The translations under genes were made by a program, and so were the position numbers. From Lytechinus pictus (lineage: Eukaryota): 64,000 nucleotides of DNA. This document shows, piece after piece, positions 13,901-61,066 of the stretch. The DNA lies in the NCBI RefSeq assembly GCF_037042905.1, contig NC_087251.1, forward strand, positions 35,094,001 through 35,158,000, written 5' to 3'. Position 1 is the first letter of the stretch; each line of letters begins with the position of its first letter. Below the pieces are notes generated by a model that saw only the letters and a program-made list of their open reading frames with translations, was not told the DNA's origin and did not search any database.

Positions 13901-13971
13901 GCCCAACGTTTGCAAGTCTACATGCTGTCCAGGCTGGCAACTGAATGCATATACAGGAAGATGCACAATAC
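13901..13971 (+). CDS. Exon a: 4-Cys / FUN-like N-terminal motif, PNVCKSTCCPGWQLNAYTGRCTI
   Basis: Acceptor ttttttctcctcag, donor c|gtaagt; 71 bp, phase 2 in and phase 1 out. The NVC..CCPGW..C motif is characteristic of LTBP and fibrillin N-termini. Confidence 0.88.
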
Positions 13972-16756
13972 GTAAGTTTGTAGTAGTTCTTATTTTTATA
14001 TTCTTGTAAAAAATAAGTGGTACATTGCTTCATGCAGCAAATAATTGACTCGGTCTTTGCAAACATGGTGTCACAGGACTTTGGTTTATTTAGGAAATAA
14101 ATAACATGTCATTCATTCATTCGTAGTTTGCATTAGTTCTAACTAATATGCCAACCAGATATTCCCATTTCAATTATTGCCTGTGATCATGCGCGGCGAT
14201 TTCATGAGTTTTTCGCTTCGGCGGGGGGGGGGGGGGGGGGGGGTTAAAGATTAATATATGATAATTTTCCCAACTTAAAAAAAGATTTAAATTTCATATG
14301 CTTAAACTGGCTGTTGGTCAGTGGTGAACTCTTGAATTAACGGGAAAAAACCCCAAACATTATTAAGCGCGCAAAAATGCGATGGCCTCTGAACTTCACG
14401 TTGGCTAACCTTTAATCACCACGAATGTTTTGTATAAAGCACGGACTCGGTTAGCTTTAAGATAGATTTTGTTCCTCCAAATAAGTCCTCACCACACATC
14501 TATATTTTGCCTTCTTCCGATCCAACCCGTCATTGATATGCTGTTCCAAGCAACTTCCCGATCCCGTAGGTGATCCATTTCTTAAAGACTTTAAACCCAT
14601 GAGGGACACTCTGTTCATTCTTAGGTAAATCTCCCTCGAGTTGACTAAGTCAGATGTCTCACCTGCATCAAGCAGAAATCCGCCTTCTTTTGGAAAGTTT
14701 TTACCACGATGATGGATGGACGGTTAGCACATAGAGTCAGTGGAATTTGTATTTGGTTGGGAAGAGAACTTGGTGTTTAAATCAACTCCTTGAAGTTGAA
14801 TGTCTTCGTTAGGGAATTTGTGAAATTTAGTTGTTAACTTGTTGTTGTACAATATGCATAATCATTTAAAGTATAGTAGGTTTATATGCACGGTGCTATG
14901 AGATCTTAATATTTATAGGGCGGCTCAATAATACTTGGATTGATTTTATGTCTGAGTGAGTGTGCGCGCACATATCATGTGTGAGATTTATCTTGGGTGT
15001 GGGTGAGAATGGGTGTGTGTACTTATGTGTAAATGCCAATACGTTGGATTGTTAATAGTGCATTCATTGAACACATAGTACGCACTGAATGTATTGAACA
15101 TGCCCGTCAATTGCCAATGTACAGCTGGGGGGGGGGGGGGGGCTTTGTAGAAAACGGGTGAACCGGAACAGCAGTTTCGTCCTAAGTTTCACAGCCGACG
15201 AAATATTGCACATGTGGTGTCTGTCCAGAGTTCGGGACAAAACTGCTATTCATCAATTTTCGACAAAGACTTCTTGGTAGCACTTTGTCATGAAGGGCAT
15301 TTGACAATACATTTTCTATGTTGTTGAAAGCGTTCTGTATTGTGATGTGAAATCTGCCTACTTGATCAATACGAACCTTTGGATAATCTTTAGAGTCCAA
15401 TGTCAGATGTTCGCCAAGATAAAGCTGATATTGCCGATGTGAATTGCTCCTGAGATGAATCGTAATCAATCCAATCCTAAGACCAGAAGTACTGAGTGTG
15501 TCTGTCAGATGGAAGAAATTTGCGTCTTTAATTTCATAGCGTTATCTCTAGGGCTCGCGTGCCAGACATAACCCCCTAATCTCTAGTGTCTATTTGAGAT
15601 CAAAACGTCTTGGTCTAAAATCCTGGTCTAGCTTGACCTTTTCTGGTTTAACTCTATCGTACGGTGTCCTCATCTGGGTGTTTTATGTCTTAGATGCACA
15701 TCCTTGTAGATAAGATATCGGCACTTAGTGTAGAGATACCTTTCTAAAAGATCTTACCGCTCTCTCTATTAAGAGTTTCTTCAAAGCCTTTTTTAGATGT
15801 ACAGTGTATATATATATAGAGAGAGTACTTCCATTAGGGAATACAAAAGTGTTGTCACATTTATGATTAAAATTTCATGTGAAATAAGCACCACATTTTT
15901 ATGTTTTCATGTGAAGAGAAAATGTTTTCATACAGTTGACGATATTCTTATGAAATGATTTGAATTATTTAGCAAGGCACAGAGAAAACAACAACACTGA
16001 ATTATTAATTTGTATTAGATTGAAACAATACAGGGACGACCATAATTATTTGAATAGGATGCGGGGTTTAAAAAAACTATAATTGTTCTCTTTCCCGGGG
16101 TATTCCGGCAGTTTAGTCAGATGGCCCATTGGAAAAAAGAAACGTTTGGAGATTAAACACACCTTATATTATCAAACGCAACTTGATCAAATCCAATCAC
16201 ATCCTCATCCAATCAGATAGGCTTAATAATTGGGGGTTCTGTTTAATTTTTTGAGTTGCATTTGATTGCACTTGAAGAGGCTCCTGTAGGCCTACTGATT
16301 GTTTTTTTTTTAATCTTTAAGAAAGAACTGATTAAAATATTAAAGCAATATCCGAAATGATAAAACCAAAGAGGTAAAAAAGTTTCTCAAAGGAATCATC
16401 AAATCGAGATCAAAATAAAAGTTTGAATGATTGTCATGATTGTGGATGGATGATGTTTGCGAAGGAGGCGATTCGAGTATAATCGCGTAATCGCGTTTGG
16501 ATCGAAGGCAATTTAAAAGAACCGGTGAAGATTAGAAGGAAGAGATGCCGGAGCAGGTGACGATGATATTGTTTTACAAAGTGAATCTCACCATATTCAT
16601 CATATCCATTTATGTCTGTTCCCATGCAGTTGCAGAAAGAGTTGAATTTGATCGCATCTCATAAAATCAAGCACAAGTCCTGAATAAGTGTCTTTGATTG
16701 GCACAAATTTTAGTTGCGTCTGATTTTTTTTATTTGATCGTAACTTGGGCAATTTA

Positions 16757-17037
16757 GCAATCACTTCGCAGACGCTTTCTATAACGCTGATAATCATTTG
16801 TCAGAAACCCTTCATAAGAAAGCAGCCTTTGTCGAAAATCGTTGAATCAAAACAGCAGTATCGTCCTGGGCTCTGGACAAACGACATATCTGCAATATTT
16901 TGTCCGGTCCAAATCTTAAGACGATGTGCTGTCCCGGTCAACCAACTTTCGACGATGACCTCTAATCTGTCCATTGTGATTTGACGGGCATTTTCACTAG
17001 ATTCTCAACGTTCAAAAAGCGTCTGCGAAGTGGATGC
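16757..17037. mobile_element. MITE with about 40-bp imperfect TIRs flanked by TA
   Basis: Left gcaatcacttcgcagacgctttctataacgctgataatc versus reverse complement of right end gcatccacttcgcagacgctttttgaacgttgagaatc. Confidence 0.8.
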
Positions 17038-18198
17038 TAAAATACGTTACACTCTCTTCAACGGGCTCCTGGAAAAAAGGCGATGATTTCTTAAAAAAGG
17101 TCGATGGCACGGTTTCCACCATGTTTGTTAGCATCATAATTTTTTTTAAAATATATTTTTAGCAAGAAGGCATTAGGTCTTTACCTTATACAACGCCATA
17201 TAACGACCTCCTTGCAGGCTATTTCTGTGATAATGCACAGTAAGTTGTTTGCTCATTATGAGATCAGTGTGGGTGAGGAGGGATGTTTTCGTTCCAAAGA
17301 TATTAATTTCTGGAGAAAAGGGACAATAAATGCGTGGAACATAGCGATTAGGTATATTCATCTCCTTTTCATCAAACTTAAAGTGAAGAAAATCTGCAAT
17401 AGTTTTGATATATGGTCGATTATATTATTTTGACAACTTGGATAGGGTGTACTCGGAATGGTGGTAGGCGTGGATCTATTTAGTCATCCAAAGGGGTGGA
17501 ATAAATTTAAAACTTAAGTTTTGTTTGAAAGATTACTACCGTGGGATGTACTGCTTATCTAAAATGAAATGTGGAATGTTTTCATCAGGGAATTAAAATG
17601 CAGAGAGTGCAATATAATTAAAAGAAATAAAAAACATGACTTAGATTTTTGATTAATTATTTCATGAAGTTTTGAAACTTTGATAATTCATTATGTCTAC
17701 TTTAACATGTCAAAGTTAAATAATGATGATAATAAGCTGTTTGAGAAGATTTAAAACAGAAGACAAGCATGGAAATTAAACCTGGTGCATTAAAATAGAG
17801 ATTACAGCAAGTAGTATGAGGGGAGGTGACACGAAAGGGGAAACAAACAACTGTTGCTTTCATACAAAGGGTTAATGAAAAAGGGAATAATTTTTACTTT
17901 CTTTTCTTGTAAATTTCATTAATTAGTACAGGAAGACCAGATAATTCAAACAAATTTTCAAAATGCTACCCAACTGTGATATTTAGTAGTCAGTTGCATC
18001 GAACAAACCAGTTGAGTCTTTCATTTTTAGACCTCTCCCCGCTTCCTTTCATACTCCCTCTTGCATCCACTGGGTAGCTTGTGATGTAGTTACAGTAATT
18101 ATTTACATGCATATACCTTCCAAATGGCGTAATGGAATAGAGAGTATTAGCCGGCCAATCAGTGTTTATTGTATACCAGTCACTCTAACTGTGTTCAA

Positions 18199-18323
18199 GT
18201 CTTATGCTACCGTCACACCGACGAAAGAGACTCCGAATCGATCAATGATATGCCATATGGTAATAACGTAATAACTTTGATCGGTCTGGAATCGGTTTCG
18301 CCGTTGTGACTGGGGCATAAGAC
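18199..18323. mobile_element. Short hairpin MITE (about 125 bp)
   Basis: gtcttatgctaccgtcacaccgacgaaagagactccgaatcgatcaa pairs with the reverse complement of the right arm gtcttatgccccagtcacaacggcgaaaccgattccagaccgatcaa; related fragments occur elsewhere in the window. Confidence 0.8.
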
Positions 18324-20244: not shown

Positions 20245-20364
20245 AGTCCCCAGACTGTTTCTCGTACAGTTTTCAGGATTCAATGAGCCAAAACATAAGT
20301 AATAACAATGACAATGACCATGATTAAACAATGATAATTTATTTCAATTCTTCTCATTTTTTAG

Positions 20365-20721
20365 CCATATGTCAGCCACCTTGCCAAAATGGAGGTCGAT
20401 GTCTCCGACCAGGCACTTGCGTTTGCCCGACCGGCTTCGCAGGAACCTACTGCCAGTATCAGGCCTATGTCCGAACAGGATCGGGTTCTTCAAGCACCCT
20501 CCATGCCAGTTCGTCGGGGTCCGTTAGACCAGGAACCGGTAGCTACAGTAGGATAACTTCGAGTACGTCGACCAGACCCGTCGCTGGAAGCAGTACTGCC
20601 ACCTTCAGCATCAGACCTGGGTCCTCTTCAAGTTCAAGGACGTATATTTCAAGAGTTAGACCAGGAACAGCCACTTCTGGATCCAGGACTTACGCTGTTA
20701 CGTATACGACGGGTGCTCGAG
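20365..20721 (+). CDS. Exon b: non-calcium-binding EGF domain (ICQPPCQNGGRCLRPGTCVCPTGFAGTYC) plus Ser/Thr/Gly/Arg-rich linker
   Basis: Acceptor ttctcattttttag, donor g|gtaaga; 357 bp, phase 1-1; six-Cys EGF spacing; lies inside track ORF 20331..20801. Confidence 0.92.
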
Positions 20722-22599
20722 GTAAGATCTTACAAGTGAGAGTAACAGGCCTACCAAAATGTCATTGTACGTTTACGGACGTATATGGATTCATTATTTG
20801 AGAAGATGTTCTTTTATCCACAATCATGAAAAATTCACCGTTGCTTAGTAAAATTTCGCTTGCGAGGCTACAAACCTTCCATTATCTGAAAAGATAAATG
20901 TGAATTTTCAAATGATCCGTTATAGCCTAGCTATAATACGTTTTTTGGTCAAGATGATTTGTAAAATGAGGCACAGACATATTGGAAGCGATCCCAACAT
21001 GTAGGAAGTATGAACACATAGATATAAATCAGCTCGTTTCTGAAATCCTAAAAGGAAAAGTGATGCATCTCATAAACGATTTTTTTTCTCTGGAGCCCAT
21101 GGAGGCCCCTGATAACATCTTCATCTTTGGAGTGTGCAATCGAGATATGAATACCAGCCTCTCGTTCCCTTGGTTTTTGGCGGGTTATTCATGACGATGT
21201 CGTCTGCTTCAAATTACAGAAGTTCATATTAAGTTGATGAACCTTCTGCTTTAACTAATCCACACGTTTTCCAATTAGATTACAATGTCCGTCGTATCAA
21301 ATTGTATATTTCCTTCTTGATTTGCCGAGTAATTTGGACAATACACAGATTACCATGGTCACAGAAATAGAGGTATCTGATAAAGATTATCTTAGATAGG
21401 ATCAAGTCAATCCGATATCCAGTGTGCAAAAAATAAATCACGAAACATATGTAGAAACACTTTGGTTTCCACGAAGTAATATTGCAAAAATAAGTTAAGA
21501 ATTCAAAGTTATTGCTGATCTTGCGAAATGCCCTTTATTAGACGATTGGGTAAAGTGTCGAATGTTATTATTTCTTTTATTATGATAAAACAGCTTTGTT
21601 TATAAAATATTTCCTCTGGTCTTGATAAACATTACAAATGTTAGACTTTGTCGTCTTTCGACGAGTATACATGTATACTGAATAAGCGACGTTATCAAAT
21701 GTTTGATGAGTTATATGATGTAAGAGAAAGTCGAACTTTACATTTAATCTAGAAGACTGGTCTTTCCAGTAAACATTCGAGGTATCAAAATGGAAATTAT
21801 ATTATATTATACGAAAAAGAACCAGACCGTTTTACTAGGAAGTTATTTGGACGTGTTTCATTATATTATGAGGTAAAAGGTCTTGCATTTGAAATCATTG
21901 ACAAATAGTTTCATTGCTTTCATCATTAGCAGTTTAAGGGCTTTTCGAAGGGCTTCAGTATCCGAACTTGAATATCGTCATTGCGATGGGTTTCATTACT
22001 TGAAATTAAATCAATTGATTAAGAATAATTTCTAATTATGAGGTTGGTAGAGGTTTCACGATGGCATGATTACAGCAAATTAAATGACTGCTTTAGGTCA
22101 AGGTTTTTGGCGCCAAACCGTGAGTACGAAAATACTCTTCTTTATTTGTTAAAGCCTAGGCCATTTTTGGGCCGAGTCAAGGATTTCAGAGGTGAAAGCA
22201 TCCGATTTGGAAGATGGTAATCTTGATCGCGCTAACTAGATGAGAGAAAGTAATTGAAGACCAGTAACCAGATGTAACCTAACAATCTGTAGACTTAAAT
22301 GTCATACTCCATTTTATGTAGCAAGAGTCGACGACCTTTTTATGGGAAAAAAGGTTTTACTGACAGTGATTTTAAAAAATGCTGCGCCATATTTTCAAAG
22401 CTAATCCTGAATTTGGTCTAGTACGAAAAAGAACCAGACCGTGTTCCTAGGAAGTTAATTGTACTTGTTTCATGCGTTATTTCATTTCTGATTCATGAAC
22501 TATGTAGATATTCCATGCACGGAACTAAATCTTCCTAAACAGTTATGCAATTTTTCTCATTACACCGCCAGATTGTTTGCCGTCAGATATGAGTGTGTC

Positions 22600-23578
22600 C
22601 AATGATATTCACACTGTGTTTACAGTTTGGAAGACAATGTGAACATAATTTATATTCACCTTCGCATGAAATTATGAAATTATCTTCACCCTGTTGAATT
22701 TGAAAATGTTAGCAGTGTGAATCATATGTTCACTTTGCGAATACACTGTGAATACACTGAGAACACACTGTGAATATACGGCGAATACACTGACCACACT
22801 GTGAATACACTGTGAATACATTGTCAACACACTGTGAATGCACTGCGAATACACTGACCACATTGTGAACACACTGTGAACACACTATGAACACGATGTG
22901 AATATACTGTCAACACACTGTGAATACATTGTGAACACACTGTGAATATACTGTGAACACTCTGCGAATACCTGACCGCACTGTGAACACATGGTGAACA
23001 CATTATGAGCACACTGTGAATACTCTTTAAATACACTGTCAACACACTGTGAATACTGTGCGAATACACTGTCCGCACTGTGAATACACTGGAAATACAT
23101 TGGCCACACTTTGAACACACTGTGAATACACTGTAGATACACTGAAGACACTGTGAATACACTGTGAATACACTGTGAACACACTGTGAACACTCTGTGA
23201 ATACACTGAAGACACTGTGAATACATTGTGAACACACTGTGAGCATACAGTGAATACATTGTGAACACACTATGAACACGCTGTGAATATGCTGTCAACA
23301 CACTGTGAATACACTGTGAACACACTGTGAATACTCTGCGAATACACTGACCGCACTGTGAATACACTGGAAATACATTGGCCACACTTTGAACACACTG
23401 TGAATACACTGTAGATACACTGAAGACACTGTGAATACACTGTGAATACACTGTGAACACACTGTGAACACTCTGTGAATACACTGAAGACACTGTGAAT
23501 ACATTGTGAACACACTGTGAGCATACAGTGAATACATTGTGAATACAATGTGAACACACTGTGTTCTTTCCTGTAGGG
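22600..23578. repeat. 10-bp-unit satellite (acactgtgaa) with about 278-bp higher-order duplication, embedded in a dispersed repeat
   Basis: acactgtgaat/acactgtgaac reiterated from about 22735 to 23562; marker ggaaatacattggccacactttg at 23091 and 23369. Confidence 0.93.
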
Positions 23579-26500
23579 ATGATAATATAATTTTCTTGAA
23601 ACGCAATTGAGAAATAAACAAAAAGTAAGAATGAATACCTAATTATTGATATTTTTCAGTTTGAAACGAAATATGGCAATCGTTAGACATGTTAGATGTG
23701 TTCTTCTATCAGATCACGTCCGGTTTCTTTCCATTTCATTCACTCTTATTCCAAACGACCAAAAGACGAGCAATTTCTCCCCCGAGAATGAAGATAGACC
23801 AGAAAATAGAGAGCAGGATATAAATGGAGTTGTCGTTGAGCACAAAAGTCATATATCACTGAGTGCTTTGGGACTTGCCAATTGATCTCGATTTCCTGCA
23901 AGGGTCATGTTTTAACATAACCTTTACATGTTAAATGTTAAAAACAATCCCGTTCTGATTTTGATTGGTTCTTTCCATGATGATGAATTGCTTCTTTATT
24001 TTAAATAAATGCAAATGGTATGCGATTCTATTTATTGTTTAATCTCATTTCCTTTCTTTCTTAAGTCATTCCTTTATTACGCGTTTTTAAAGAAATTTGA
24101 AAAGGAATAGAATATAATGCCTTGTTTTTACATGTCTTTTTCACGTTTTCCTTCATATAAGATAAGCCCTATATGTATTAACTTAAAAGACCGCCGATTG
24201 CGCTGTTTGACTTGCTTTGTCAGTAGCATTTGAATCACATCTCTTACTTTCGGATTATACAACTGCTTTATGCGTGTCCCATCCCCTTTAGGAAAAAAAA
24301 TGAATTTGCAAATTTTGAATTTCTCCCATTTACGGAATTCGAGATGCAGGACCCTATTGCATGGAACACCTCCATGCATGGAATGAACTAAACATTTATA
24401 GTATTAGACATCTCCAACAAAATACAGTCCACCTCCTGTTAGAATTATGAAATTTTAAAGTAAGATCATGAATCATATGTAGGGATAACCATAGCAATTA
24501 TATTTCCCACGCAACGTTGCAACAAATAAACCGATTGTGGAAAGATAAATGATATATGAAGTTTTCGTGCATCATTTTCTAAATTCTAGGTATGTTGATA
24601 GTTCTGTCGGTTTATGTACAGGCTATAAGACAAACTTGATACTGGGGTAAAGTTCACTTGGGAAGTCTAGCTCGGTAGTGCCTAAAAACTATCCCTTGCA
24701 AAATAAAAAAATTTTCCAATAAACACCTGAACATAAATGTTTTCAGTAAACCCGAATTGTGTATCTTCCACTGAAAGCTAGAAATCATCAATTGAATGAT
24801 ATCAAGAATCCCGATCTGGAATCATCTAACCTTCTTTCCAGGAAAGAGCGTCGTTCTACTACTATGATATCATTGTTATGGCACCCTTGATTCATAAACA
24901 TAAGGATCAGGACACCAAGGAAGAATTGGGCCGTGTTTCATGGAAAGATATATTCAATGGTTAATTCAATTTTTTGTTTTGAACACAAACAAAGTGGTAA
25001 AATCTGACTGGCTCGGAGGCTTTCTTCTACGTGAATATCTTAGATCGCGTTTCTTATCATTGATGTATTTTATGAACCAGGCGCCTGTATTTTCCGTATA
25101 TAAGGGTTGTTAACCGACTTAGCCACTCCATGTTCGGAAATGGTTGGTTTTACTTTAATTCCACCAATATTCCGGTTCTACATCGGTAATTTAAGTCACA
25201 TTATTATAAGCATAGTTTCACGATTCTTCCCCTGTTACAGGCACCGAATCTGTCAATTTTCCGCCACCTGTTTGGCAGAGAGGTCGTTGTTCCGTCTGAC
25301 ACCAAGATCCCTTTTTTTTCTTGGTTTTGCTCTCCTTTTCTATAACCCTGATACCCCAATATCATTTTCTATTTGGAACCAAGTTCAAGATGGGTTGAAG
25401 AGGACGTTGTGAAGTTTCAACTTTTATTGAAGTGTAATTGATTGCCTCCGAGGAGGATGAAAGCCAACCATAATATTGAGTGTGGCATGTCTGTTGGTGT
25501 TGAGGTTTTCCTAGACAATATTTCCTGAAGCATGTAGAATCCTATCGAAACAGAAATATTTGAAAAAGGATGAAATTGGGCTTTAAAATCGAGAGAATTT
25601 GTTGATAAGACCCTCTAACTGTTTTCAGGATTTACCTGTCTTTGACTGAATTGAGAAAGCTCTTGATTTCTAGTAAATAAAAAAGTCACCCTTTTCACGA
25701 AACCATGCGCTTGAAAGAGTTCTGTCTGGAAGCAGGAGTTTGAAATCACGTAAAACACAAAGATATTTAATCTTGCTCATCTTGCTCATCTTGCAAATTT
25801 TAGATTTGCTAGGGCAGGTCACGTTTTTAAAGACGCCTTCCTTTTTAAAGTAGATATATCGAATTCAAGATTGGTGATGTGAACCCTTTTCACTTCCGTA
25901 ACTGCACACCATCTTTGCTTCTTCCTTGACTTAACGTAGGGTAAGTCATCTCATCGTTATCTTCATCTTTTATGACATAAAGAGTTTATTGTTTGTGAAA
26001 TTACACTCATTGGTGCAAAACGGATATTGACATCAAAGCGGCTTCAAGACAAATGATGGCAGATGGCGTGGTTAAAATATATAATTCTTAGGTTTCCTGT
26101 ATCTCATGTTCAACATGGGATTAAAAACGTAAGACAAACCAGAATGAAACAACTTTTATCTGTTATTATCAAGCACTTGATAATAATGAAGGCCACCATT
26201 TCTTTGAACACATAAACTGATTGTTAGTACCTCACTGTTAAACTAGGGCTTTTTCATATACATAACAAGATCCCATTGAAAGGTTTATCCATCTAAATTG
26301 GTTTACGTAGATATTCATTTTCGTTCATTCATATCTCTCAATGAATTTAGGGCCTACCAAATAATAATTGTGTACATTCTATATTTTGATCAGTTTTGAC
26401 GTACGTCGGTAAGACAAAATTGGTAATTTCTTTCCACCAAAGGTATTATTGTGTTGCTAAAGTAGCTATGGATAAAATATTTCACTTCATTCTTATTGTG

Positions 26501-29500
26501 CATACTCGTTTATTAACTTGGATATTTCAAGCCGAAGAAAAGAAAGCACTCGTATCGCTATGTACAAATTATTCAGTATAGTGATTCAGTGTAGAGAATA
26601 AAGACTTTGATGAGCCGTCATCGAGGAATCATCATATATCTTTTCAAGCTTTGTGTCCTTATTCTCACCTTTCATTGATTGAAATAGGTGTGAATTAAGA
26701 AAGAAGCACAAACCAGGCTTCTTTTGTCGTCGATTACATCTGCTTTTCTATCTATTCCTCTCGGCTTCCGCGTTGAAGGTCATAACCGTAGAAAGGAGGG
26801 GGAAAAGCTGAGTAAACGGTTTAATTGTCATAGAAGAACGGTTCCAACGTTAAAGGTCTGGTCAAAAGGCTTATTTGCAATCATTTAGGATTTCGAACGA
26901 AGGAGACTCTTAAATATTGCCTTAAGAACATGTAGATCAAAATTTACAAGTGAATCGGAAATTGTATTGTTTAAAATTGTTTTGAGAGTTCTGGGATGAG
27001 TCGAGAAGATTAGCATGAATGTTACTTTAAAAATTGCTTGGCGATGCTCCCTCGATCTGTAAGCCCTCAAAATTGTGATTGTTGGCGCTCATACTTTTTA
27101 ATTACCCCCCCCCCATATCGACTTGAGCAAGTTTGCTATATATTTCGTTCTTCGTTTCACTTTAATTAGTATAAAGAGTAAACTCTCGGAATGTTTTCGT
27201 TTGTTCTGATAAATGGCCCATTCTTGCTTATGTTAAACATAGGTTTGTCCTTTATTTACTCCCTGAGGAGCTTCGATAATTAGTTAACCACTTAATACCC
27301 AGGGCTTAAAACTTTCATGGCCTCTTATTTTCACCTATTACTTTAGTCTACCAAAGATACTCTCTTGTCGACCATGAAACAAATCTGTCTATGAATGAAA
27401 TTAATAGGAGATGTCCTTTAAGACTGTTTTGATCAGAATTGGAAATATGGGTGACCAGATTAGGAAGGTTTAGCCCCGATTTAACATATTTAAATGATCA
27501 GATTAGAAATTCGGGATATTCTGCGAATGAGCACAAGATCCGATGCAATTGAATAAACACAAATGGAATAAAAGCATCCGGGTATACCTGGTCATACTAT
27601 TATATTGATACACGGTTGGTCCAGATGGAATTGATTTGAAGGACATTGGGATATACAATATATTTCTTATGCGACAAGAATTTCCTTTATCCATATAATA
27701 GGTAAAAGAGTTTATGGGGTTTTGCACTGAATTCAGGGTGAATTTGGAATGAAAAAGGTCTATATACGCCCTTTTTCATTTACTTTAGAGAGTTTCTGTT
27801 TAAAATTATTCTAAAATGGGCGAAAATACACATTTTCACCTAAAGTTGTAAATGTGTTTTCTAAAAAGTGAATATTTTCAGTTTTTATTTCAAATTAACA
27901 GTCCAAATCACAGAGGCAGTAAAATATTGAGCAAATGGATCGTAAGCTTCATATTTTAAGTGATTTGTATATATATTTTTTTAATATGAACGCCTAAAAG
28001 TTTATGAAACATTACGAATTAAGGTGGAAAATTAGTTGGGAAACCAACGGATGTTTTGGATCGAATATATGAAGTACGTAGACAGAATCGTAATTATTCA
28101 TCAGAATTTGCAGGAAAGGAATTTACGTTAAAGAGGTTCATTCTCTTTCTAAACGTAGTGACATCCGTGAACGCTACAAATTCCCTTGATTTTTAAAGAT
28201 TTTTCTCGAAATTGTTCACTGCGTCTTCTTGAGTTTGGCTTTAAAAAGGAAGTTGAAGCAGGATGTAGAGGAGAGACTTGGGGTGCTGGCAGTTCACTCA
28301 CATTCGACATCTTCAGGTGAGGAAAGGGGGTTAAGCTTTGATCCATATATCAAACCTATCAGTCTATCGCAGCCCGCATCTTCCTGCTGTGATGAAAGTA
28401 CAAGGGCAAGGATTTTACCCCTATCCAAAACGAATCATTACCAATCAAGATATATGCCTTATTGATGGATTAAACTACATGTATACATTGTTTTGCAGAA
28501 ATTGTTTTGAAAGTTTGGATATCAAGTGTGTTGCCTTCAGTTTGGGTTTCATACATCTCAATGGAAATATTTTCGAATATCTCCAGCCTCAAAACCACCA
28601 TGCTTAGAGAGCATTAAAAAGTATATTATAGAATGTTTTTGGTTGCTAAAGACATGCCATTATTGTCTCGATTTTCTTTGTGCAATTCCGGTAAATTTGC
28701 AAAAAAAAAAAGAGTCTTCAAATTTATCATTCTTTGAAATAATTGACGGGATGTTCAATTATCATTTTCTTACGAGTAACATTTTAGATGACTCAGAGTT
28801 TTTTTTTTTTGATGAGAGAATGGGCATTGCTTGCCAGATTGCCAATAATGTATTAGCTTACATCACAAAACCTGACATGGCGCCCGCCTCGTCAAGCTTC
28901 TCGTGCTGGTGCATGAGGTCAAAGAAGATGATCAAAATAGTAACCGTTTTTTAAGACTGTAATACAGGGCAGTGACAGGCTATTTGCGACACTGTCCATG
29001 TGGAACTTCTTAAAATGTTCCATATTCGAAAGTTAAATCTAATAATAAATTTCAAGGTTAGGATATTTTGCATCATTGCAGTGGATGTGTCTGTCAGATC
29101 TTCCAGGCAGGTGTCTCCATTCGGCTCAACGGCGCGGCGTCCAACTTCGACGCGAGCCGTGTCCCGCCGTTTGCTGCCCCCGCTCCATTTCAATCCCATA
29201 TGCATTTAGATGTAATTTGTAGATATTTGAGGGCATCAACAAAACTTTGTGAACGTCGAGGTTAATGTCCTGTACCTTAGCTTGTACTTGCGCCCGAGAA
29301 CCAGACTTTCATCCGAAGTGCATCTCTTCCAGGGAGTCTTGGGGTTTTTCCAAAATGCCACGATCCTTCTTTCATTCTCCTCTATTTCGTGTCATCCTTG
29401 AGCTGTGGCTGCAGTGATTGAGTCTATTAATATTTGCCAATGCAGACTTCTCCAATCATTTATGAAGGCTTTCCACATGTTACATCCTGTGCCAGAATGG

Positions 29501-36287: not shown

Positions 36288-36560
36288 GTAACGTAGTATC
36301 AACGAACGGTCAGCGACCCTACACGTCATCGCACCTATCGCCTTCATCATCGGGGTCGTCGTCGTACTCGACAGGCGCTGTTAGTCTGCCGTCGTCCCAC
36401 ACCCTGGCACGTTTCACCATGAGGGGTCCGTGCTTCCGACGAGTGAGCTCCTCGCATTGTATGGCTCCATTGAGTGACGTCACTACCCTCCACGATGATT
36501 GCTGCTCTTCCGTTGGGCAGGGGTGGGGTAATGGATGTTACGCCTGTCCGCAGATGTTAG
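36288..36560 (+). CDS. Exon c: Ser-rich linker plus first part of the hybrid domain (RGPCFRRVSSSHCMAPLSDVTTLHDDCCSSVGQGWGNGCYACPQML)
   Basis: Acceptor tttatttcattgcag, donor g|gtaaga; 273 bp, phase 1-1; CC..G..WG..C..CP signature of TB/hybrid domains. Confidence 0.9.
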
Positions 36561-36580
36561 GTAAGACTTTGATCAGGGTA

Positions 36581-40948: not shown

Positions 40949-41074
40949 ATGTGGATGAATGCACTGCATTTGACAACATCTGCATGCACGGTACTTGTCT
41001 GAACTCACAGGGTAGCTACAGGTGTCGTTGTGATGAGGGCTACATGTCGGATACATCAGGAACACAGTGTGTAG
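40949..41074 (+). CDS. Exon e: calcium-binding EGF domain ([42 protein letters not shown])
   Basis: Acceptor ttctcattttttttatag, donor g|gtgagt; 126 bp, phase 1-1; D-x-D-E-C and C-x-N-x-x-G-S-Y-x-C cbEGF consensus. Not in the ORF track on this strand. Confidence 0.95.
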
Positions 41075-42965: not shown

Positions 42966-43082
42966 AATTTTTGCTTTATCCTCGATGTTAATGACTATAA
43001 GCTTTCTTTCCATTTCATCTACATTCTTCCCTAATAGACTGATACACATGTAGGAGAAGGCGGAAATTATTACATGAGAAGA

Positions 43083-43590
43083 GGAAAATTGACCACCATC
43101 CGAAGCAAAATGTAACCCCCCGCAGAAAACTCTCTTTGGAACACGATTACGAAATAATTGTAATTATAGTCATTATAGTGACAACAGGAGTACTAGTAGG
43201 AAAATTAACTGTCATCCGAAGCAAATTGTAAAAGAAAAACCCGCAGAAAACCTTCTTTGGAGCACAATGATTATGAAATGAATGTAATTGTAATCATTAT
43301 ACACTGTTATAGTGACAGCAGAAGTATAGTAGGAAAATTAACCATCATCCGAAGCAATATGTAAAAAAAACACCGCAGAAAACCTTCGTTGGAACACAAT
43401 GATTACGAAATAAATGTGTTTCATATTCATTATAGTGACAGAAGGAGTACTAATACGAAAATTTACCATCATCCGAAGCAAAATGTAGAAAAAAAAAACC
43501 CGCAGAAAACCCTCTTTGGAACACAATGATTGCGAAATAAATATGTTTTTATATTCATTACGGTGAAAGCAGGAGTATAACAGGAGTAAA
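43083..43590. repeat. Diverged tandem repeat, 4 copies of about 115-135 bp
   Basis: catccgaagcaa...ccgcagaaaac...ttgga.cac recurs near 43097, 43213, 43346 and 43470. Confidence 0.9.
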
Positions 43591-48010: not shown

Positions 48011-48383
48011 TCCTCAAAGCCTGATTTAGAGATTAGAGATCGTAGAGGTTGGACGTGTTTTGCAGGTGCTCTGACATTTTGTGCGATTTTGCCGTGTTTC
48101 GAGACATTTTGTGAAAACGATTTATATGGTTGCATCAGGGACGGAATAGTGAATATCAAGGATATACTCGTTTTTCGATTGGATAACTTATTTGGATGTT
48201 ATCGAACGTTTTTTGCTTGAAATTTTGATCATTTTGGAAAGGAAGGTGTCAAAAAACTTCTAAAAATAACATCATTTACGCGTCATTGCCTAGCAACGCA
48301 CCTTACTTACGCACCTAGCTGACACGCGCTGTTATCTCTACGAAACCTGAAACATTACGTAACAATACAAACTGGGCCTACTG

Positions 48384-49181
48384 ATGCCAGCGCCACCGAA
48401 GAAATCTAAGCAGCAAGCTGCTAATGAAGGAGATGATCTCCTTGATGTAATAAAGAACTTAAGAGATGAAGTTTCGATGCTTTCCAGCTCTATGAATAAT
48501 AAATTCTCGGTTCTGGAATCTGCCATCAGTGATGTACGAGGAGGCCAGCAAGACATCGTTAGGTCTCTCTCTTTCTTGGAAGAAAAGTACGAAGAGATGA
48601 AAGTAACAACGGAGCGACTTGAGAGAGAGAATAAGGGACTACAGAATGAGAACCAGGCACTTAAGAAAAGGGTAGATGTCCTTGATCGTCAAGTTCAGGA
48701 CCTCGACCAGTATCATAGGAGGCAAAACCTTGAGATCGCTGGGATTCCAGAAGAGAAGCAGGAGAACCCAGCAGATGTAGCATTGATCATCTCCAAAAGG
48801 ATCGACCCAGATATCACCGCTGGCGACATCGATATTGCACACCGCCTCGGAGCACCGAAACCGTCTGCCAAGCACCCAAGACCAATAATTGTCAGGTTTA
48901 CCAATCGAAGGGCTAGGAATGCTGTCTATGATGGTAGGAAGCATCTACGGGGCACAACTTCTGCGGATCTTGGAATCAACCTTCGCAGCACTTTGAAGAT
49001 CTTCGTCAACGAGAACCTCGTCGGTGCAACAAGAGAGCTGCTAGGACTCGCCAATGGAGCTAGAAAAAATGCTGGGTACAAGTTCTTATGGACTTACAAT
49101 GGAAAAATATATGTCAGGAAGGACGAGAAATCAGCTCCTGTCATCATATTCTCGAAAGAAGATATTTCGAAGCTGAAATAA
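48384..49181 (+). CDS. LINE ORF1 protein, 265 aa: coiled coil + L1-ORF1-type RRM + C-terminal domain
   Basis: Heptad-rich region (LEEKYEEMKVTTERLERENKGLQNENQALKKRVDVL) followed by motifs LDQYHRRQNLEIAGIPE, IDIAHRLG, RPIIVRF, IFVNENL, GYKFLWTYNGKIYVRK. Confidence 0.9.
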   Translation: MPAPPKKSKQQAANEGDDLLDVIKNLRDEVSMLSSSMNNKFSVLESAISDVRGGQQDIVRSLSFLEEKYEEMKVTTERLERENKGLQNENQALKKRVDVLDRQVQDLDQYHRRQNLEIAGIPEEKQENPADVALIISKRIDPDITAGDIDIAHRLGAPKPSAKHPRPIIVRFTNRRARNAVYDGRKHLRGTTSADLGINLRSTLKIFVNENLVGATRELLGLANGARKNAGYKFLWTYNGKIYVRKDEKSAPVIIFSKEDISKLK

Positions 49182-49225
49182 CTGTAAATATGTAATGTCT
49201 TTATTTTTTCTTTTACGTAATACTT

Positions 49226-52222
49226 ATGAACGTAATGGATACTACACTTATCAACAGAATTTCGCTTAATGATAACGAAGAACTTGACCCATTTCAAATA
49301 ACAACAGCATCACTTTCTCCTGAAAATTTTTCCTCGACAAAAGCTTTTTCTCAGCCATTCTCCATTTCGCACGTGAATGTGAGATCTTTGAATCGCAATT
49401 TTGAAATGTTGAAAGAAGTATATGAAGATGAATTGAAATCATTTTTTGATATAGTCGCATTATCAGAAGTTTGGAATGTTAAAGACGTAAATCATTTTTT
49501 AATGCCAGGGTATAATCTTGAATTACAATGTAGAAATACTACAAGAGGAGGAGGAGTTGGTGCTTATATTCATTCAGGACTTAATTACAAACGAATGCCT
49601 AATTTGTCCTTGCACAATGCTGAATCATTATGGCTGAAAATTCTCATTCAGGATGTGAGTATCATATTTGGGGTAATTTATAGAAAACCAGACAGTAACT
49701 TTGAAGAATTTAGTCTTGATCTCAACGAGCAATTGCATAACTTGAATCTAGACAGAAACCATTGCATTATTGTAGGAGATTTCAATATAAATCTTTTATC
49801 TCCAACTGAAAGTTGTCGTGATTTTATTCACATGACAGAATGTTATGGCTTACGTCAGTTGATAACAAGTCCAACAAGAATAACAAGTTCTAGCATATCT
49901 CTCATTGACCATTTTTATACTAATATATATGCCTATCCTATTCAAGCAGGGTGTATTGAAGTAGATATTTCTGACCATCTCCCAGTTTACTCCGTTTTTA
50001 AGAACTTCAAGTGTGTTAAACAAAGAAAAAATAGTGTAACACGGAGAAACTTTCATAATTTTTCAATAGATTCATTTTGTAATGATCTACATGTTACTAC
50101 TAATTTTTGGGAAAGCGTTTTAGAATGTATGGATCCTAATGAAGCTTATAATATTTTCCAAAGACAGTTCTTATTTGTTTGTAATAAACATGCTCCTATT
50201 GAGACAAAATGTGTTAAACAGAAAAAGAAAAATAAACCCTGGATAACACGGTGTATTAAGCGTTCAATATCGACAAAGCACAGACTTTTTTCTCAAGTTA
50301 TAAAATCAAATTATAATAAAGATTGTTTGAGTAAATATAAAAAATACAGAAATCAGTTAACAGCCGTCTTAAGGAAAGCAAAGCAAATGCATTATGAACA
50401 TAAGTTTGAGGCAGACAAAAAAGATTCAAAGAAAACTTGGAATCATATCAATGAACTTTTGAATAAAAATAGTGGCTCGAATCTGAATTCAAAAATTAAC
50501 AAATTAGTTGTTAACCAAGAAAATGAACCTTCCGAAATTACTTCATCTATTGATATAGCAAATTCACTCAACAATTATTTCTCTACTATTGGGAAAAATC
50601 TAGCTGAGAAAATTGAGCAGCCAAATGTTAATTACCGAGAGTTCATGGGTCCATACATTAGTCAAACATTTTTCTTCCTGCCAATAACAAGTTCAGAAGT
50701 TAAAGAAATGTTATACACTCTTGATCAATCTAAAGCAAGTGGCTATGATGACATATCAGTTCGACTGTTGAAATATGCTATGAATTGCATTAGCAAACCT
50801 CTTTCGCATATATTCAATCTATCATTTACCACAGGCATTTTTCCAGATAAATTAAAAGTTGCAAGAGTTATACCAGTTTTCAAAAAGGGAGATAAAGAAT
50901 TACCTGGAAATTATAGACCAATATCGATTTTACCCGCGATTAGCAAAATATTTGAAAAACTAGTGAATGTACGATTGATGAAATTCATAGAAAAGAATGA
51001 AATATTGTATAAACACCAATATGGTTTTAGAAATGGATACAGTACGAAACTTTCCCTGATAAATCTGATTAATCAAATTACAAGATATACCGATGAAGGA
51101 AAGGTGACAGTAGGAATATTCATCGATTTTGCTAAAGCTTTTGATACAATTAATCATTCTATTCTCATTAAGAAACTAGAACACTATGGCATTCGTGGTA
51201 AGGCAGTAGAATGGTTTAATGATTATTTACGAAACAGAAAGCAATTTGTTAATTATGATGGTGTAAATTCCGAATACAGGTCGATTTCATGCGGTATTCC
51301 ACAAGGATCCGTTTTGGGTCCTACTATGTTCTTGTTGTATATAAACGATCTGGCAAACTCATCAAATTATTTCAATTTCCGTCTTTTTGCGGATGACTCA
51401 AATTTATTTCATACTTTCAATTGTGATGAACAACATATTGATTTATCAGAAATTAGTCTCAATTTAAACAATATAATAGCATGGTGCAATGCCAACAAAT
51501 TGACAATCAATGTTACGAAAACTAAATATATGTTGTTTAAAAATAGACGAAAAAATATTATGATATCAGGACAATTGTCACTGAAAGGAACTTTATTAGA
51601 GTGTGTTGAATCAACATTATTTCTTGGTATATGTATCGACAAAAACCTTACATGGAAGAAACAGGTTGACATTGTCTGCAATGTGCTAAGCAAAAAAATT
51701 GGAATACTTTATAGATTGAGGAATTATGTAACAAAGAGAATCTTAGTTATGTTATACAACTCATTTATTTTACCACATATAACGTATGGTCTGGAAGTAT
51801 GGGGTGGGACGTGCAAAACAACCCTGAACCCTATATTATTACTTCAAAAACGAATAGCTAGAATAATGACGTTCAACCATCATACTTATCACTCTGCTCC
51901 TTTATTTTATGATCTAAATATTCTCGATATTTTCAAACAATACCAATATTTGATAGGAGTATTTATGCACGATTTAATTAATAATCGGTTGCCGCATAGT
52001 TTTATTGATTATTTTTCATTTATAAACCATCCTTACAATACAAGAAATAGAGAAAAGCGAAATGTTAATCTTGACAAAAATAATACCAATTTGGGAAAAC
52101 AATCAATTTCATTTTCTGGTCCTACTTTATGGAATCTTCTGCCAAGTAATGTTAGAAACACCCCCAGTCGTAAGATATTTAGCAAATCGTTAAAATTAAT
52201 GCTACTGGAAGATTATAATTAA
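49226..52222 (+). CDS. LINE ORF2 protein, 998 aa: APE-type endonuclease + reverse transcriptase
   Basis: Endonuclease motifs NVRSL, LSEVW, GGGVG, IYRKP, VGDFN, IDH, SDHLPV; RT motifs NYRPISIL, QYGFR, DFAKAFD, GIPQGSVLGP, FADD. No stops or frameshifts. Confidence 0.96.
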   Translation: MNVMDTTLINRISLNDNEELDPFQITTASLSPENFSSTKAFSQPFSISHVNVRSLNRNFEMLKEVYEDELKSFFDIVALSEVWNVKDVNHFLMPGYNLELQCRNTTRGGGVGAYIHSGLNYKRMPNLSLHNAESLWLKILIQDVSIIFGVIYRKPDSNFEEFSLDLNEQLHNLNLDRNHCIIVGDFNINLLSPTESCRDFIHMTECYGLRQLITSPTRITSSSISLIDHFYTNIYAYPIQAGCIEVDISDHLPVYSVFKNFKCVKQRKNSVTRRNFHNFSIDSFCNDLHVTTNFWESVLECMDPNEAYNIFQRQFLFVCNKHAPIETKCVKQKKKNKPWITRCIKRSISTKHRLFSQVIKSNYNKDCLSKYKKYRNQLTAVLRKAKQMHYEHKFEADKKDSKKTWNHINELLNKNSGSNLNSKINKLVVNQENEPSEITSSIDIANSLNNYFSTIGKNLAEKIEQPNVNYREFMGPYISQTFFFLPITSSEVKEMLYTLDQSKASGYDDISVRLLKYAMNCISKPLSHIFNLSFTTGIFPDKLKVARVIPVFKKGDKELPGNYRPISILPAISKIFEKLVNVRLMKFIEKNEILYKHQYGFRNGYSTKLSLINLINQITRYTDEGKVTVGIFIDFAKAFDTINHSILIKKLEHYGIRGKAVEWFNDYLRNRKQFVNYDGVNSEYRSISCGIPQGSVLGPTMFLLYINDLANSSNYFNFRLFADDSNLFHTFNCDEQHIDLSEISLNLNNIIAWCNANKLTINVTKTKYMLFKNRRKNIMISGQLSLKGTLLECVESTLFLGICIDKNLTWKKQVDIVCNVLSKKIGILYRLRNYVTKRILVMLYNSFILPHITYGLEVWGGTCKTTLNPILLLQKRIARIMTFNHHTYHSAPLFYDLNILDIFKQYQYLIGVFMHDLINNRLPHSFIDYFSFINHPYNTRNREKRNVNLDKNNTNLGKQSISFSGPTLWNLLPSNVRNTPSRKIFSKSLKLMLLEDYN

Positions 52223-58372: not shown

Positions 58373-58406
<34 letters not shown>

Positions 58407-59735: not shown

Positions 59736-59799
59736 CATGTACCTCTTTTGTACACAATCAATACGTTAAATTATAGATCATGTTAATCTACTGCACCTT

Positions 59800-59910: not shown

Positions 59911-59972
59911 GCTGTTGTTAATTGTATATCAAATGTATTTACTTTGAAAGTGACAATAATTTTTTGTTGCAG

Positions 59973-60125
59973 TTTCCGTGAAACAGATGTGCTACACCCG
60001 GGTAATCAATGGACAATGTTACGGAGGCAGTGGATCTCGGATGCCTACCACTCAGATGCAATGTTGTTGTAGTCTAGGAGCTGCATGGGGTTCTTCATGC
60101 GAACGATGTCCACAACACGGCTCTT
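59973..60125 (+). CDS. Exon f: TB (8-Cys) domain, Cys1-7 (VSVKQMCYTRVINGQCYGGSGSRMPTTQMQCCCSLGAAWGSSCERCPQHGS)
   Basis: Acceptor tttttgttgcag, donor t|gtgagt; 153 bp, phase 1-1; diagnostic CCC..G.AWG..CE.CP motif. Confidence 0.93.
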
Positions 60126-60997
60126 GTGAGTTCAAAAGTTGTCGGTTATTGCCCTTATACAGCGGGGGATCGAGAAGGAGGGGGGTGGGTCATTTTGTTT
60201 TAAGATGTCTTTTTATTCGTTTCTTACAGTGGCATCAGTATTCACAAACTTCGCAATCGAATAATTATAATAAAAAACAAGAAGTAATTGATATACATGT
60301 ACATAATAGATAGACTTGTATAGATCATCCATTTCAGTAAATATGTCTGGACCTGGGACAAATGCCTCCAGTAAGAACCCCCACCGGCCCAGCCCCCCTC
60401 CATATTTTTTTGCCTTATCCACCCCTGCTACAATATTTTTCTACCCCCCCCCCCGGTGACCTGCACGTATAAAAATCCAGTGCTGCCACTGCCGATATGA
60501 TTATCTTGATCGTTGATAGCAAACAATCATGTGCAGTTTCCATCGTTCCGGAATAATCTTTATTGATGCTTTCTTATATTTACTTTGTAGGCCATGTTTG
60601 AAGTGAAAAAGAACTACAATAACAGCAATGTTTCATTTTGTCGCTTATTATACATGTCAAGGTTTCAAAGTATTTAATTGTACTTTCTTCATTATTTTTT
60701 CTTTATAACTTGCTGACTATACAGATGCAACATAACATCTCTTGGCCAAATTTACTTATTCATAAGCCATTGTTGCTCATACATGAACCCATATTGTGTG
60801 TAATCTATATCCCAGAATTCCGGCCAAGTGTGCCCAAAATGAATTTAAAAAAAATGAAAAAGTGTACGGAATTTTTTTTCTCGAATTACTCGAAATTAAT
60901 TATTGGGTTTTTCTTGTATTCATAAAATCAAATGTATATGATTTTTTTTATTAGGCATATAATTCCTTATGTTTCTATGTTTCTTCTTTTCTTGCAG

Positions 60998-61066
60998 CTG
61001 AGTTCCGTGCTATGTGCCCACAAGGTACAGGGTACCATTATAAGCCGTCCAACGGATATAATCACG
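60998..61066 (+). CDS. Exon g: TB domain C-terminal part with Cys8 (SEFRAMCPQGTGYHYKPSNGYNH)
   Basis: Acceptor ttcttcttttcttgcag; EFxxxCPxGxGY is the canonical TB-domain end; 69 bp, phase 1-1 using donor g|gtagga (donor less certain). Confidence 0.85.

What the first reader, a model, noticed from the sequence alone, without database searches (positions are those of the whole stretch)
13901..61066. Hidden 7-exon gene with LTBP-like rather than fibrillin-like domain order in an invertebrate-looking genome
Seen: the spliced exons give 4-Cys motif - EGF - long linker - hybrid - one cbEGF - TB. Known: fibrillins have FUN, three tandem EGFs, hybrid, two cbEGFs, then TB1, whereas LTBPs have 4-Cys/EGF, unstructured linkers, hybrid, one cbEGF, then TB. 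The short NVC-xxx-CC spacing and PPCQNGGxCLRP resemble human LTBP1/2 as I recall them. Inference: an invertebrate LTBP-like gene, relevant to the origin of extracellular latent TGF-beta storage and likely to be auto-annotated as fibrillin.
Basis: partly seen in the sequence, partly recalled or inferred. Interest (0 to 1): 0.7.

Follow-up and report, generated by a model that had tools for sequence, protein, structure and literature searches.

The report
Sea-urchin latent TGF-beta binding protein
These are seven internal exons of the sea-urchin version of the matrix protein that stores the growth factor TGF-beta; invertebrate versions were already known, but the echinoderm one, long mislabelled as a second fibrillin, has an unusually long spacer after its predicted TGF-beta-binding domain and in sea urchins lacks the usual tail.

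Summary
All seven exons are real: AG/GT ends, one open frame of 369 aa, 90% identical and collinear with a 1,658-aa Strongylocentrotus model. Two assembled transcript contigs join exon 2 directly to exon 3, and no hidden EGF exon was found. The species is most likely Lytechinus pictus. It is the 5' part of an LTBP orthologue: short FUN loop, 8-Cys hybrid, one cbEGF, LTBP side of the tree (100/99; grouping with echinoderm fibrillin rejected, p=0.002). Orthologues carry the TGF-beta-binding TB with the two-residue insertion, matching human LTBP1 without gaps. Deuterostome LTBPs are published, and the S. purpuratus gene matches 'Sp-Fibrillin B', dismissed as a fibrillin in 2012. New in what I could search: echinoderm orthologues have 15-18 EGF units after that TB (12 of 77 rows; the other 65 have at most 3.5), and four urchin species end without the EGF-cbEGF pair. 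Those features lie outside the window. The binding TB has not been seen in L. pictus itself; one model skips it.

The parts
13901..13971 (+). Exon 1 of 7 seen: FUN-type four-cysteine module with the short LTBP loop (3 residues between Cys1 and the Cys-Cys pair; 7 in fibrillins)
   Evidence: weak Fibrillin_U_N match, E 0.17; 96% identical to S. purpuratus residues 48-70; spacing table
20365..20721 (+). Exon 2: non-calcium-binding EGF domain plus first part of a Ser/Thr/Arg-rich linker
   Evidence: Pfam EGF E 1.9e-5; covered by contigs of runs X1 and X15 with 0 differences
36288..36560 (+). Exon 3: rest of the linker (135 aa in all, 13 basic and 0 acidic residues, 43% Ser/Thr) and TB-like half of the hybrid domain
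   Evidence: Pfam TB E 8e-10; joined directly to exon 2 in two contigs; composition; 100% match to L. pictus XP_063957555.1
40062..40121 (+). Exon 4: EGF-like half of the hybrid domain (hybrid has 8 cysteines, no unpaired ninth)
   Evidence: 100% match in L. pictus and L. variegatus models; cysteine count
40949..41074 (+). Exon 5: the single calcium-binding EGF domain between hybrid and TB1
   Evidence: Pfam EGF_CA E 3e-11; HMM scan of all six frames
59973..60125 (+). Exon 6: most of TB1 (ordinary two residues between Cys6 and Cys7, so not the TGF-beta-binding TB)
   Evidence: Pfam TB E 2e-9; domain tree
60998..61066 (+). Exon 7: end of TB1 and start of the following linker; internal alternative donor at 61024/61025 would remove 14 residues, as in two S. 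purpuratus isoform models
   Evidence: P0002 versus P0008
35227..35290 (+). First coding exon of the two NCBI L. pictus models; no signal peptide, probably a prediction artefact, not part of the chain described here
   Evidence: its bin has depth 0 in run X1 and 2.35 in X15
48363..52219 (+). LINE retrotransposon (ORF1 and endonuclease-reverse transcriptase ORF2, both open) inside intron 5; a passenger, not part of the protein

Best explanation
The seven exons are the 5' coding part of the sea-urchin LTBP gene (orthologue of S. purpuratus 'Sp-Fibrillin B'). The product is a secreted matrix glycoprotein of about 1,650 aa: signal peptide, FUN-EGF pair, basic Ser/Thr-rich linker, hybrid, cbEGF, TB1, five EGF units, TB2 with the two-residue insertion, 18 EGF units, TB3, short tail. 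SHOWN: exons, splicing of exon 2 to 3, domain order in the window, LTBP ancestry, and the insertion, the two exchange cysteines and the interface tryptophan in TB2 of four other urchin species. INFERRED from vertebrate LTBP1: in the secretory pathway TB2 Cys2 and Cys6 swap their disulphide for bonds to the prodomain cysteines of the single urchin pro-TGF-beta; the complex is secreted and anchored in the matrix through the N-terminal region encoded here (the arginine-rich, acid-free linker is a plausible polyanion-binding site) and perhaps weakly to fibrillin through TB3; integrin pull on the prodomain RGD releases TGF-beta. INFERRED difference: the latent cytokine sits mid-molecule, 15-18 EGF units from TB3 instead of 2, and urchins lack one of the two fibrillin-binding sites.
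For: Collinear 90% match to the full S. purpuratus model. Direct exon 2-3 join in 2 of 4 runs laid; remaining contig lengths equal exons 4-7 (408 nt) and exons 4-5 (186 nt) exactly. Window modules fall on the LTBP side of a 100/99 split and with crinoid and acorn-worm LTBP-like proteins (92/93); union with echinoderm fibrillin rejected, p-AU 0.0018. L. variegatus TB2 aligns to human LTBP1 TB2 over 62 columns without gaps, 84 bits, against 41 and 34 bits for fibrillin TBs. 0 of 21 fibrillin TB matches have the insertion. Key LTBP1 residues C1359, C1384, W1380 from PMC13443091 (passages) are kept. Echinoderms have one TGF-beta with RGD (PMC10268255, PMC8931421; passages). A separate true fibrillin exists in sea urchin (PMC3306419 Text S1).
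Against: TB2 and all that follows lie outside the window and rest on gene models of other species. The one long L. pictus model (XP_054759206.1) skips most of TB2, and two searches found no L. pictus protein with it (representatives only). The urchin insertion (DLIV, DLMI) lacks the Phe and Pro of human EIFP; the F1387A change lowers complex formation. Only 1 of 6 junctions was seen directly. The two raw-read runs, from a related species, listed no joint for this gene. Whether urchin pro-TGF-beta has the Cys33 equivalent was not checked. TB1 alone is not resolved with vertebrate TB1 in the single-domain tree, and the lancelet hybrid and TB2 fall outside their classes there. The tree has only three fibrillins.
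Confidence: 0.72

Rival explanations
1. It is the LTBP orthologue by descent but works mainly as a structural matrix adaptor that binds TGF-beta poorly or not at all, either because the DLIV insertion is inefficient or because L. pictus skips or has lost the TB2 exon. The long EGF array with many N-glycosylation sequons would then serve as a rod or spacer in connective tissue.
For: XP_054759206.1 skips most of TB2. No L. pictus TB2 found. No Phe or Pro in the insertion. 13 sequons and 8 CGN[AG][TS]C repeats in the S. purpuratus protein. Sequence-level insertion does not guarantee strong binding in LTBP4 (recalled, not from a call).
Against: TB2 is strongly conserved (50 of 53 identical between L. 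variegatus and S. purpuratus, 41 of 53 to Diadema) with net charge -6 like vertebrate TB2. PMC13443091 says F1387 is not conserved across LTBPs and is not essential. The same L. pictus model is wrong at its 5' end, so its skip may be an annotation or assembly error.
Confidence: 0.2
2. In L. pictus the locus gives a short or broken product ending after exon 5, perhaps through the LINE in intron 5, so that exons 6-7 are not used in the main transcript.
For: The newer NCBI model (184 aa) reads into intron 5 and stops. The X15 contig length ends exactly at the end of exon 5. An open LINE lies in sense orientation in intron 5.
Against: The X1 contig length runs exactly to the end of exon 7. Exons 6-7 are intact and the exon 3-7 peptide is 99.5% identical to L. 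variegatus. The older NCBI model includes exons 6-7 and continues for about 900 aa more. Contigs of this kind end at graph branches for many reasons.
Confidence: 0.05
3. It is a divergent second fibrillin ('Fibrillin B') that builds microfibrils.
For: Named fibrillin-1 or fibrillin-1-like in S. purpuratus and L. variegatus. The best solved-structure match of the hybrid is fibrillin-1 hybrid 1 (33 bits), though no LTBP hybrid appeared among the matches. The long EGF array is superficially fibrillin-like.
Against: 8-Cys hybrid against 9 in 3 of 3 fibrillins; no EGF2-EGF3; one cbEGF before TB1; short FUN loop. Three TBs, no fibrillin C-terminal domain, no furin site, no RGD in the orthologues. 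AU test p 0.0018. PMC3306419 Text S1 already rejected it as a fibrillin.
Confidence: 0.03

Closest known systems
Vertebrate LTBP1 (long form) and LTBP2-4; human LTBP1 TB2 structures 1KSQ and 9R3S
   Same: FUN-EGF start with short loop, low-complexity linker, 8-Cys hybrid, one cbEGF, TB1 (window); insertion-type TB2 and LTBP-type last TB in orthologues.
   Different: No 4-Cys domain or second EGF before the hybrid (0 cysteines against 6-10); short stretch after TB1 (34 aa against 90 in hagfish); 5 EGF units before TB2 and 17-18 after it, against mostly 8-14 and 2-3; no EGF-cbEGF pair after the last TB.
Sp-Fibrillin B of S. purpuratus (Whittaker et al. 2006, not seen; as described in PMC3306419 Text S1, read in full)
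   Same: Printed domain string cbEGF-TB-(1+4 EGF)-TB-(6+5+1+2+2+1 EGF)-TB matches the orthologue XP_011666113.1 except for one unit (17 against 18). The identity of the two is my inference from this match.
   Different: That text had no FUN-EGF-linker-hybrid N-terminus, rejected the gene as a fibrillin and did not call it an LTBP.
LTBP-like proteins of acorn worm (Glandiceps, XP_077996106.1) and lancelet (XP_035673025.1, XP_078593157.1)
   Same: Same N-terminal order as the window, one FUN-EGF pair then linker then hybrid; the acorn-worm protein also has five EGF units before TB2 and is the nearest non-urchin row in the tree.
   Different: Both keep two cbEGFs after TB2 and the terminal EGF-cbEGF pair; linker of 29 and 228 aa against 135.
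Crinoid protein XP_071962422.1 (Antedon mediterranea, 'uncharacterized')
   Same: Same N-terminus, insertion-type TB2 and a 15-16-unit EGF array of the same repeat type with matching first two and last two units.
   Different: 10-11 EGF units before TB2; keeps one EGF after the last TB; inner units are not collinear with the urchin array.
Fibrillins (frog fibrillin-1, sea-cucumber fibrillin, moth fibrillin-like)
   Same: Share FUN, EGF, hybrid, cbEGF and TB domain types.
   Different: Seven-residue FUN loop, EGF2-EGF3, 9-Cys hybrid 1, at least two cbEGFs before TB1, seven TBs, no insertion.

Membership tests
LTBP | FUN-EGF pair lacking the four-residue fibrillin loop motif (PMC3794157) | tested here: met
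   3 residues between Cys1 and Cys-Cys in the window; 3-4 in 12 of 12 other LTBP rows, 7 in 3 of 3 fibrillins (paper passages)
LTBP | One hybrid domain with 8 cysteines (no unpaired cysteine) | tested here: met
   8 in the window and 12 of 12 LTBP rows; 9 in 3 of 3 fibrillins
LTBP | Hybrid - single cbEGF - TB1 | tested here: met
LTBP | Penultimate TB with two-residue insertion between Cys6 and Cys7 (PMC3306419) | tested here: inconclusive
   Met in S. purpuratus, L. variegatus and two Diadema species; outside the window and skipped in the one long L. pictus model
LTBP | One hybrid plus three TB domains in all | tested here: met
   In orthologues P0008, P0007, P0009; the window holds only the first two
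LTBP | Phylogenetic placement with LTBPs | tested here: met
   16-row tree, 208 columns, split 100/99; AU p 0.0018 against union with echinoderm fibrillin; only three fibrillins sampled
LTBP | C-terminal cbEGF-TB-EGF-cbEGF arrangement (PMC3906135 calls it conserved in all complete LTBP-like sequences it found) | tested here: not met
   Urchin models of four species end 20-22 aa after the last TB with a shared tail; crinoid keeps one EGF. This is the variant feature; it does not rest on the window.
LTBP | Vertebrate 4-Cys domain and second EGF before the hybrid | tested here: not met
   0 cysteines in that stretch in window, urchins, crinoid, acorn worm and lancelet; direct exon 2-3 join. A vertebrate feature rather than a family-wide one.
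LTBP | Covalent binding to pro-TGF-beta | not testable with these tools
   Needs co-expression; no urchin pro-TGF-beta sequence was fetched
Fibrillin | FUN plus three EGFs, 9-Cys hybrid 1, two cbEGFs before TB1 | tested here: not met
Fibrillin | Seven TBs, two hybrids, furin site and conserved C-terminal domain | tested here: not met
   Orthologues have three TBs, one hybrid, no R-x-K/R-R site and a 27-29 aa tail

The most novel reading that the evidence does not exclude
Echinoderms rebuilt their LTBP early: one tandem expansion, before crinoids and urchins split, put 13-16 extra EGF units between the TGF-beta-binding TB and the fibrillin-binding end, and urchins then lost the terminal EGF-cbEGF pair that forms the stronger half of the fibrillin holdfast. 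The protein still binds pro-TGF-beta covalently, so latent TGF-beta in echinoderms hangs mid-rod on a long, weakly fibrillin-anchored tether, a natural test of how tether geometry sets force-driven activation, in animals with mutable connective tissue. The window's FUN-EGF-linker-hybrid start would be the ancestral deuterostome LTBP N-terminus, with the 4-Cys/EGF2 module a later addition.
Probability: 0.4. Interest if true: 0.6.

Novelty: new variant of a known kind. Interest (0 to 1): 0.38.

Why it matters
It corrects an annotation: the 'second fibrillin' of sea urchins is their LTBP, and the L. pictus models I saw miss its two 5' exons and one stops early. L. pictus is a tractable laboratory urchin (my knowledge), with one TGF-beta expected and apparently one LTBP, so the role of matrix storage of latent TGF-beta could be tested without vertebrate redundancy. 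The comparison also gives an order of events: single FUN-EGF start in ambulacrarians and lancelets, long post-TB2 array in echinoderms, terminal pair lost in urchins, which departs from a published statement that the C-terminal arrangement is conserved. It does not move the origin of LTBP, which is already placed at the base of deuterostomes.

Tried and rejected
No whole genome is held, so flanking exons could not be read. Hidden EGF or 4-Cys exons: four profile HMMs over 3,500 six-frame segments, with the reversed window (3,566 segments) as control; in introns 2 and 5 the best stray score was 12.0 bits on a 13-residue segment at 29466-29504 matching 9 profile positions (control maximum 8.7), rejected as too short for a domain. 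The cbEGF-trained profile scored the real exon-2 EGF only 9 bits, so a second profile was built, which scored it 45. The signal-peptide exon and exon 8 were not found in the window (best E 0.38 and 0.045 apart from cross-matches to exon 5). No listed run holder is on record as RNA: no RNA holder listed. Raw reads of the related species gave depth about 1-2 and no listed joint for this gene; the tables were swamped by a repeat at 33.6-34.2 kb. The NCBI first exon at 35227 as a short isoform start: not supported in X1, not excluded. A first concatenated tree used the wrong frog TB and dropped the crinoid; it was rebuilt with the same result. ESM Atlas gave only generic TB clusters. Three key reviews were not held: Robertson 2011, Robertson and Rifkin 2013, and a third sought by a recalled id. 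PMC13525746, PMC5897022, PMC3308698 and bioRxiv 2026.08.05.743009 (passages) had nothing on an urchin LTBP. Earlier scan notes: nothing on this gene. No structure or complex prediction was run: folds of these domains are solved and no partner sequence was in hand.


Full report
Observation. The exons are 13901-13971, 20365-20721, 36288-36560, 40062-40121, 40949-41074, 59973-60125 and 60998-61066, all on the plus strand, each with a pyrimidine tract plus AG and a GT donor. All six introns between them are phase 1 and the chain is open for 369 residues. Pfam places an EGF domain in exon 2, a TB-type domain in exon 3, a calcium-binding EGF in exon 5 and a TB domain in exon 6; exon 1 has only a sub-threshold match to the fibrillin N-terminal (FUN) model and exon 7 none. 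Because all introns share a phase, extra or skipped exons would not break the frame, so independent evidence was needed.

Independent support for the chain. The hybrid part of exon 3 found 3 proteins among 3 candidates: a Lytechinus pictus model at 100%, a Strongylocentrotus purpuratus model at 93% and a Diadema setosum model at 78%. The window is therefore sea-urchin DNA, most likely L. pictus. The whole chain aligns with S. purpuratus XP_011666113.1 residues 48-418 at 90% with 2 gap positions, and each stretch of that protein maps to one of the seven exons with nothing left over. Four of 24 listed runs were laid on 20250-40249. In X1 and X15, from different studies and of unrecorded library type, one contig each joins 20719 directly to 36286, which is the exon 2-3 junction shifted by its shared AG. 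What remains of those contigs past exon 3 is 408 and 186 bases, exactly exons 4-7 and exons 4-5. That is arithmetic, not an alignment; only one of six junctions was seen directly. The two raw-read runs, from a related species, were shallow and listed no joint for this gene.

No hidden domains. Profile HMMs for cbEGF, N-terminal EGF, TB and the vertebrate 4-Cys domain, built from fetched proteins, were run over 3,500 six-frame segments with the reversed window as control. They recover the known exons and nothing domain-sized in introns 2 or 5. The signal-peptide exon and the exon after exon 7 are not in the window, so the gene runs past both ends. The two L. pictus models I saw start at a signal-less exon at 35227 and omit exons 1-2; the newer one stops in intron 5. 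That exon's bin has no depth in X1 and 2.35 in X15.

What it is. Four characters in the window separate LTBPs from fibrillins, and all four are LTBP-type (12 LTBP rows, 3 fibrillins). The FUN loop has 3 residues, against 7 in fibrillins; PMC3794157 (passages) notes that LTBPs lack this four-residue motif. There are no EGF2-EGF3 domains before the hybrid. The hybrid has 8 cysteines, against 9; PMC3306419 (passages) reports the unpaired cysteine as conserved in fibrillins. One cbEGF precedes TB1. A 16-row tree of these modules puts the window on the LTBP side of a 100/99 split, with crinoid and acorn-worm proteins (92/93), and the AU test rejects joining the urchin rows to sea-cucumber fibrillin (p 0.0018). 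Limits: three fibrillins only, three long branches, no root. A 94-row single-domain tree agrees for the hybrid (85), TB2 (90) and last TB (87) but leaves TB1 unresolved and misplaces two lancelet domains.

The full protein, from orthologues. Models from S. purpuratus, L. variegatus and two Diadema species continue with five EGF units, a TB with four residues between Cys6 and Cys7, 17-18 EGF units, a last TB and a short tail; they have no furin site, RGD or fibrillin C-terminus. The L. variegatus TB2 aligns to human LTBP1 TB2 over 62 columns without a gap (84 bits; fibrillin TBs 41 and 34 bits with a two-residue gap). It keeps the equivalents of C1359, C1384 and W1380, which PMC13443091 (passages) shows to link to and contact latent TGF-beta, but not F1387, whose loss lowers but does not abolish the complex. 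None of 21 fibrillin TB matches has the insertion. A search of 1.84 billion representatives with this domain gave 279 hits, 150 listed; of 20 looked up, 16 are deuterostome LTBP-type proteins (named LTBP or uncharacterised) from vertebrates, lancelet, acorn worm, tunicate and crinoid, 3 are fibrillins and 1 is an unnamed fragment.

Evidence against. In L. pictus itself TB2 has not been seen. The older long model skips most of it, and two searches for it returned no L. pictus protein (2 hits of 26 candidates and 2 of 10; cluster representatives only). This may be an annotation error, since the same model is wrong at its 5' end, or a real skip. Binding to TGF-beta is inferred, and I did not check the urchin prodomain cysteine.

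Mechanism. Most likely (0.72) the protein works as LTBP1 does: TB2 exchanges a disulphide with pro-TGF-beta, the complex is secreted and tethered in the matrix, and integrin pull on the prodomain RGD releases the cytokine. Echinoderms have one TGF-beta with RGD (PMC10268255 and PMC8931421, passages). The window encodes the N-terminal region; its 135-residue linker has 13 basic and no acidic residues, conserved in Strongylocentrotus and Diadema, which suggests polyanion binding (inference). Rivals are a mainly structural LTBP that binds little TGF-beta (0.2), a truncated L. pictus product (0.05) and a second fibrillin (0.03).

What is known. PMC3906135 (section 10 and passages) states that LTBP and true TGF-beta emerged with deuterostomes and includes an acorn-worm sequence. 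Text S1 of PMC3306419 (read in full) prints the domain string of 'Sp-Fibrillin B' from Whittaker et al. 2006, which matches the orthologue to within one EGF unit, and rejects it as a fibrillin without naming it an LTBP. Databases call it fibrillin-1 in S. purpuratus, fibrillin-1-like in L. variegatus, uncharacterised in Diadema and LTBP4-like in L. pictus. Robertson et al. 2011 and Robertson and Rifkin 2013 were not held; I recall that they list invertebrate LTBP-like proteins, possibly including an urchin one, and they or their supplements may already show this architecture.

What looks new. Among 77 stored proteins of 800-2,300 aa with an insertion-type TB followed by another TB (isoforms and near-copies included; proteins without that pattern dropped), the 12 echinoderm rows from four urchin species and one crinoid have 15-18 EGF units between the two; the other 65 have at most 3.5, mostly 2 (counted as cysteines divided by six). 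The crinoid and urchin arrays share their first two and last two units and a repeat type, while inner units are not collinear, which fits one old expansion with later turnover. Urchin models of four species end shortly after the last TB with a shared ADQPVPG motif (one partial model ends within the TB), and the crinoid keeps one EGF. PMC3906135 describes the terminal EGF-cbEGF pair as conserved in all complete sequences it found, and PMC5548924 (passages) shows that LTBP1 binds fibrillin-1 through TB3 and EGF3 together about a hundredfold better than through either alone. Seven paper searches (LTBP with sea urchin, echinoderm, acorn worm, amphioxus, Strongylocentrotus; fibrillin B) showed no paper on this; I saw listings for all and passages or sections of twelve papers. 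These features rest on predicted models outside the window, and no sea star, brittle star or sea cucumber LTBP was identified among the rows named.

Verdict. It is an LTBP orthologue in a group where LTBP-like genes were expected, with an echinoderm-specific domain layout: a new variant of a known kind, interest 0.38.

Noticed in passing
window 48363-52219 (+): LINE retrotransposon in intron 5, sense to the gene, with both frames open: ORF1 (coiled coil plus Baculo_FP-like domain) and ORF2 of about 1,000 aa (endonuclease, reverse transcriptase). No clear target-site duplication found.
   Followed up: partly
window 7769-7835 (+): Decayed cbEGF-like piece upstream of exon 1: an AG directly before a DFNEC start, four cysteines only; 18 bits against a control maximum of 6.7; no Pfam match and no close source among stored proteins. 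Possibly a dead exon.
   Followed up: partly
window 33590-34256: Very high-copy element in intron 2 with opposite-strand joints and inverted ends, MITE-like.
   Followed up: no
window 61024-61025: Alternative donor inside exon 7; its use would drop 14 residues after TB1, as in S. purpuratus isoform models X2 and X3.
   Followed up: partly
window 5433-6514, 22739-23563, 43082-43577, 45361-47216: Tandem arrays with units of 93, 11, 124 and 49 bases; the first two give long false open frames.
   Followed up: no
P0004 (XP_054759206.1), near residue 495: The older L. pictus model skips the exon that encodes most of the TGF-beta-binding TB; artefact or real isoform is open.
   Followed up: partly
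P0202 (Styela clava): The tunicate LTBP-like protein has five residues (DSKEM) between Cys6 and Cys7 of TB2, net charge 0 rather than -5 to -7, and two extra EGFs before the hybrid; it may not bind TGF-beta in the usual way.
   Followed up: no
P0204 (Apostichopus japonicus fibrillin): A cysteine-rich insert of about 320 residues (30 cysteines including the second cbEGF) lies between cbEGF1 and TB1, made of short repeats with Cys-Pro-x-Gly-Tyr/Phe; not present in the frog or moth fibrillin.
   Followed up: no
P0017 (Glandiceps, acorn worm): At 845 aa, a minimal complete LTBP with all modules and short linkers; a good candidate for the ancestral layout.
   Followed up: partly
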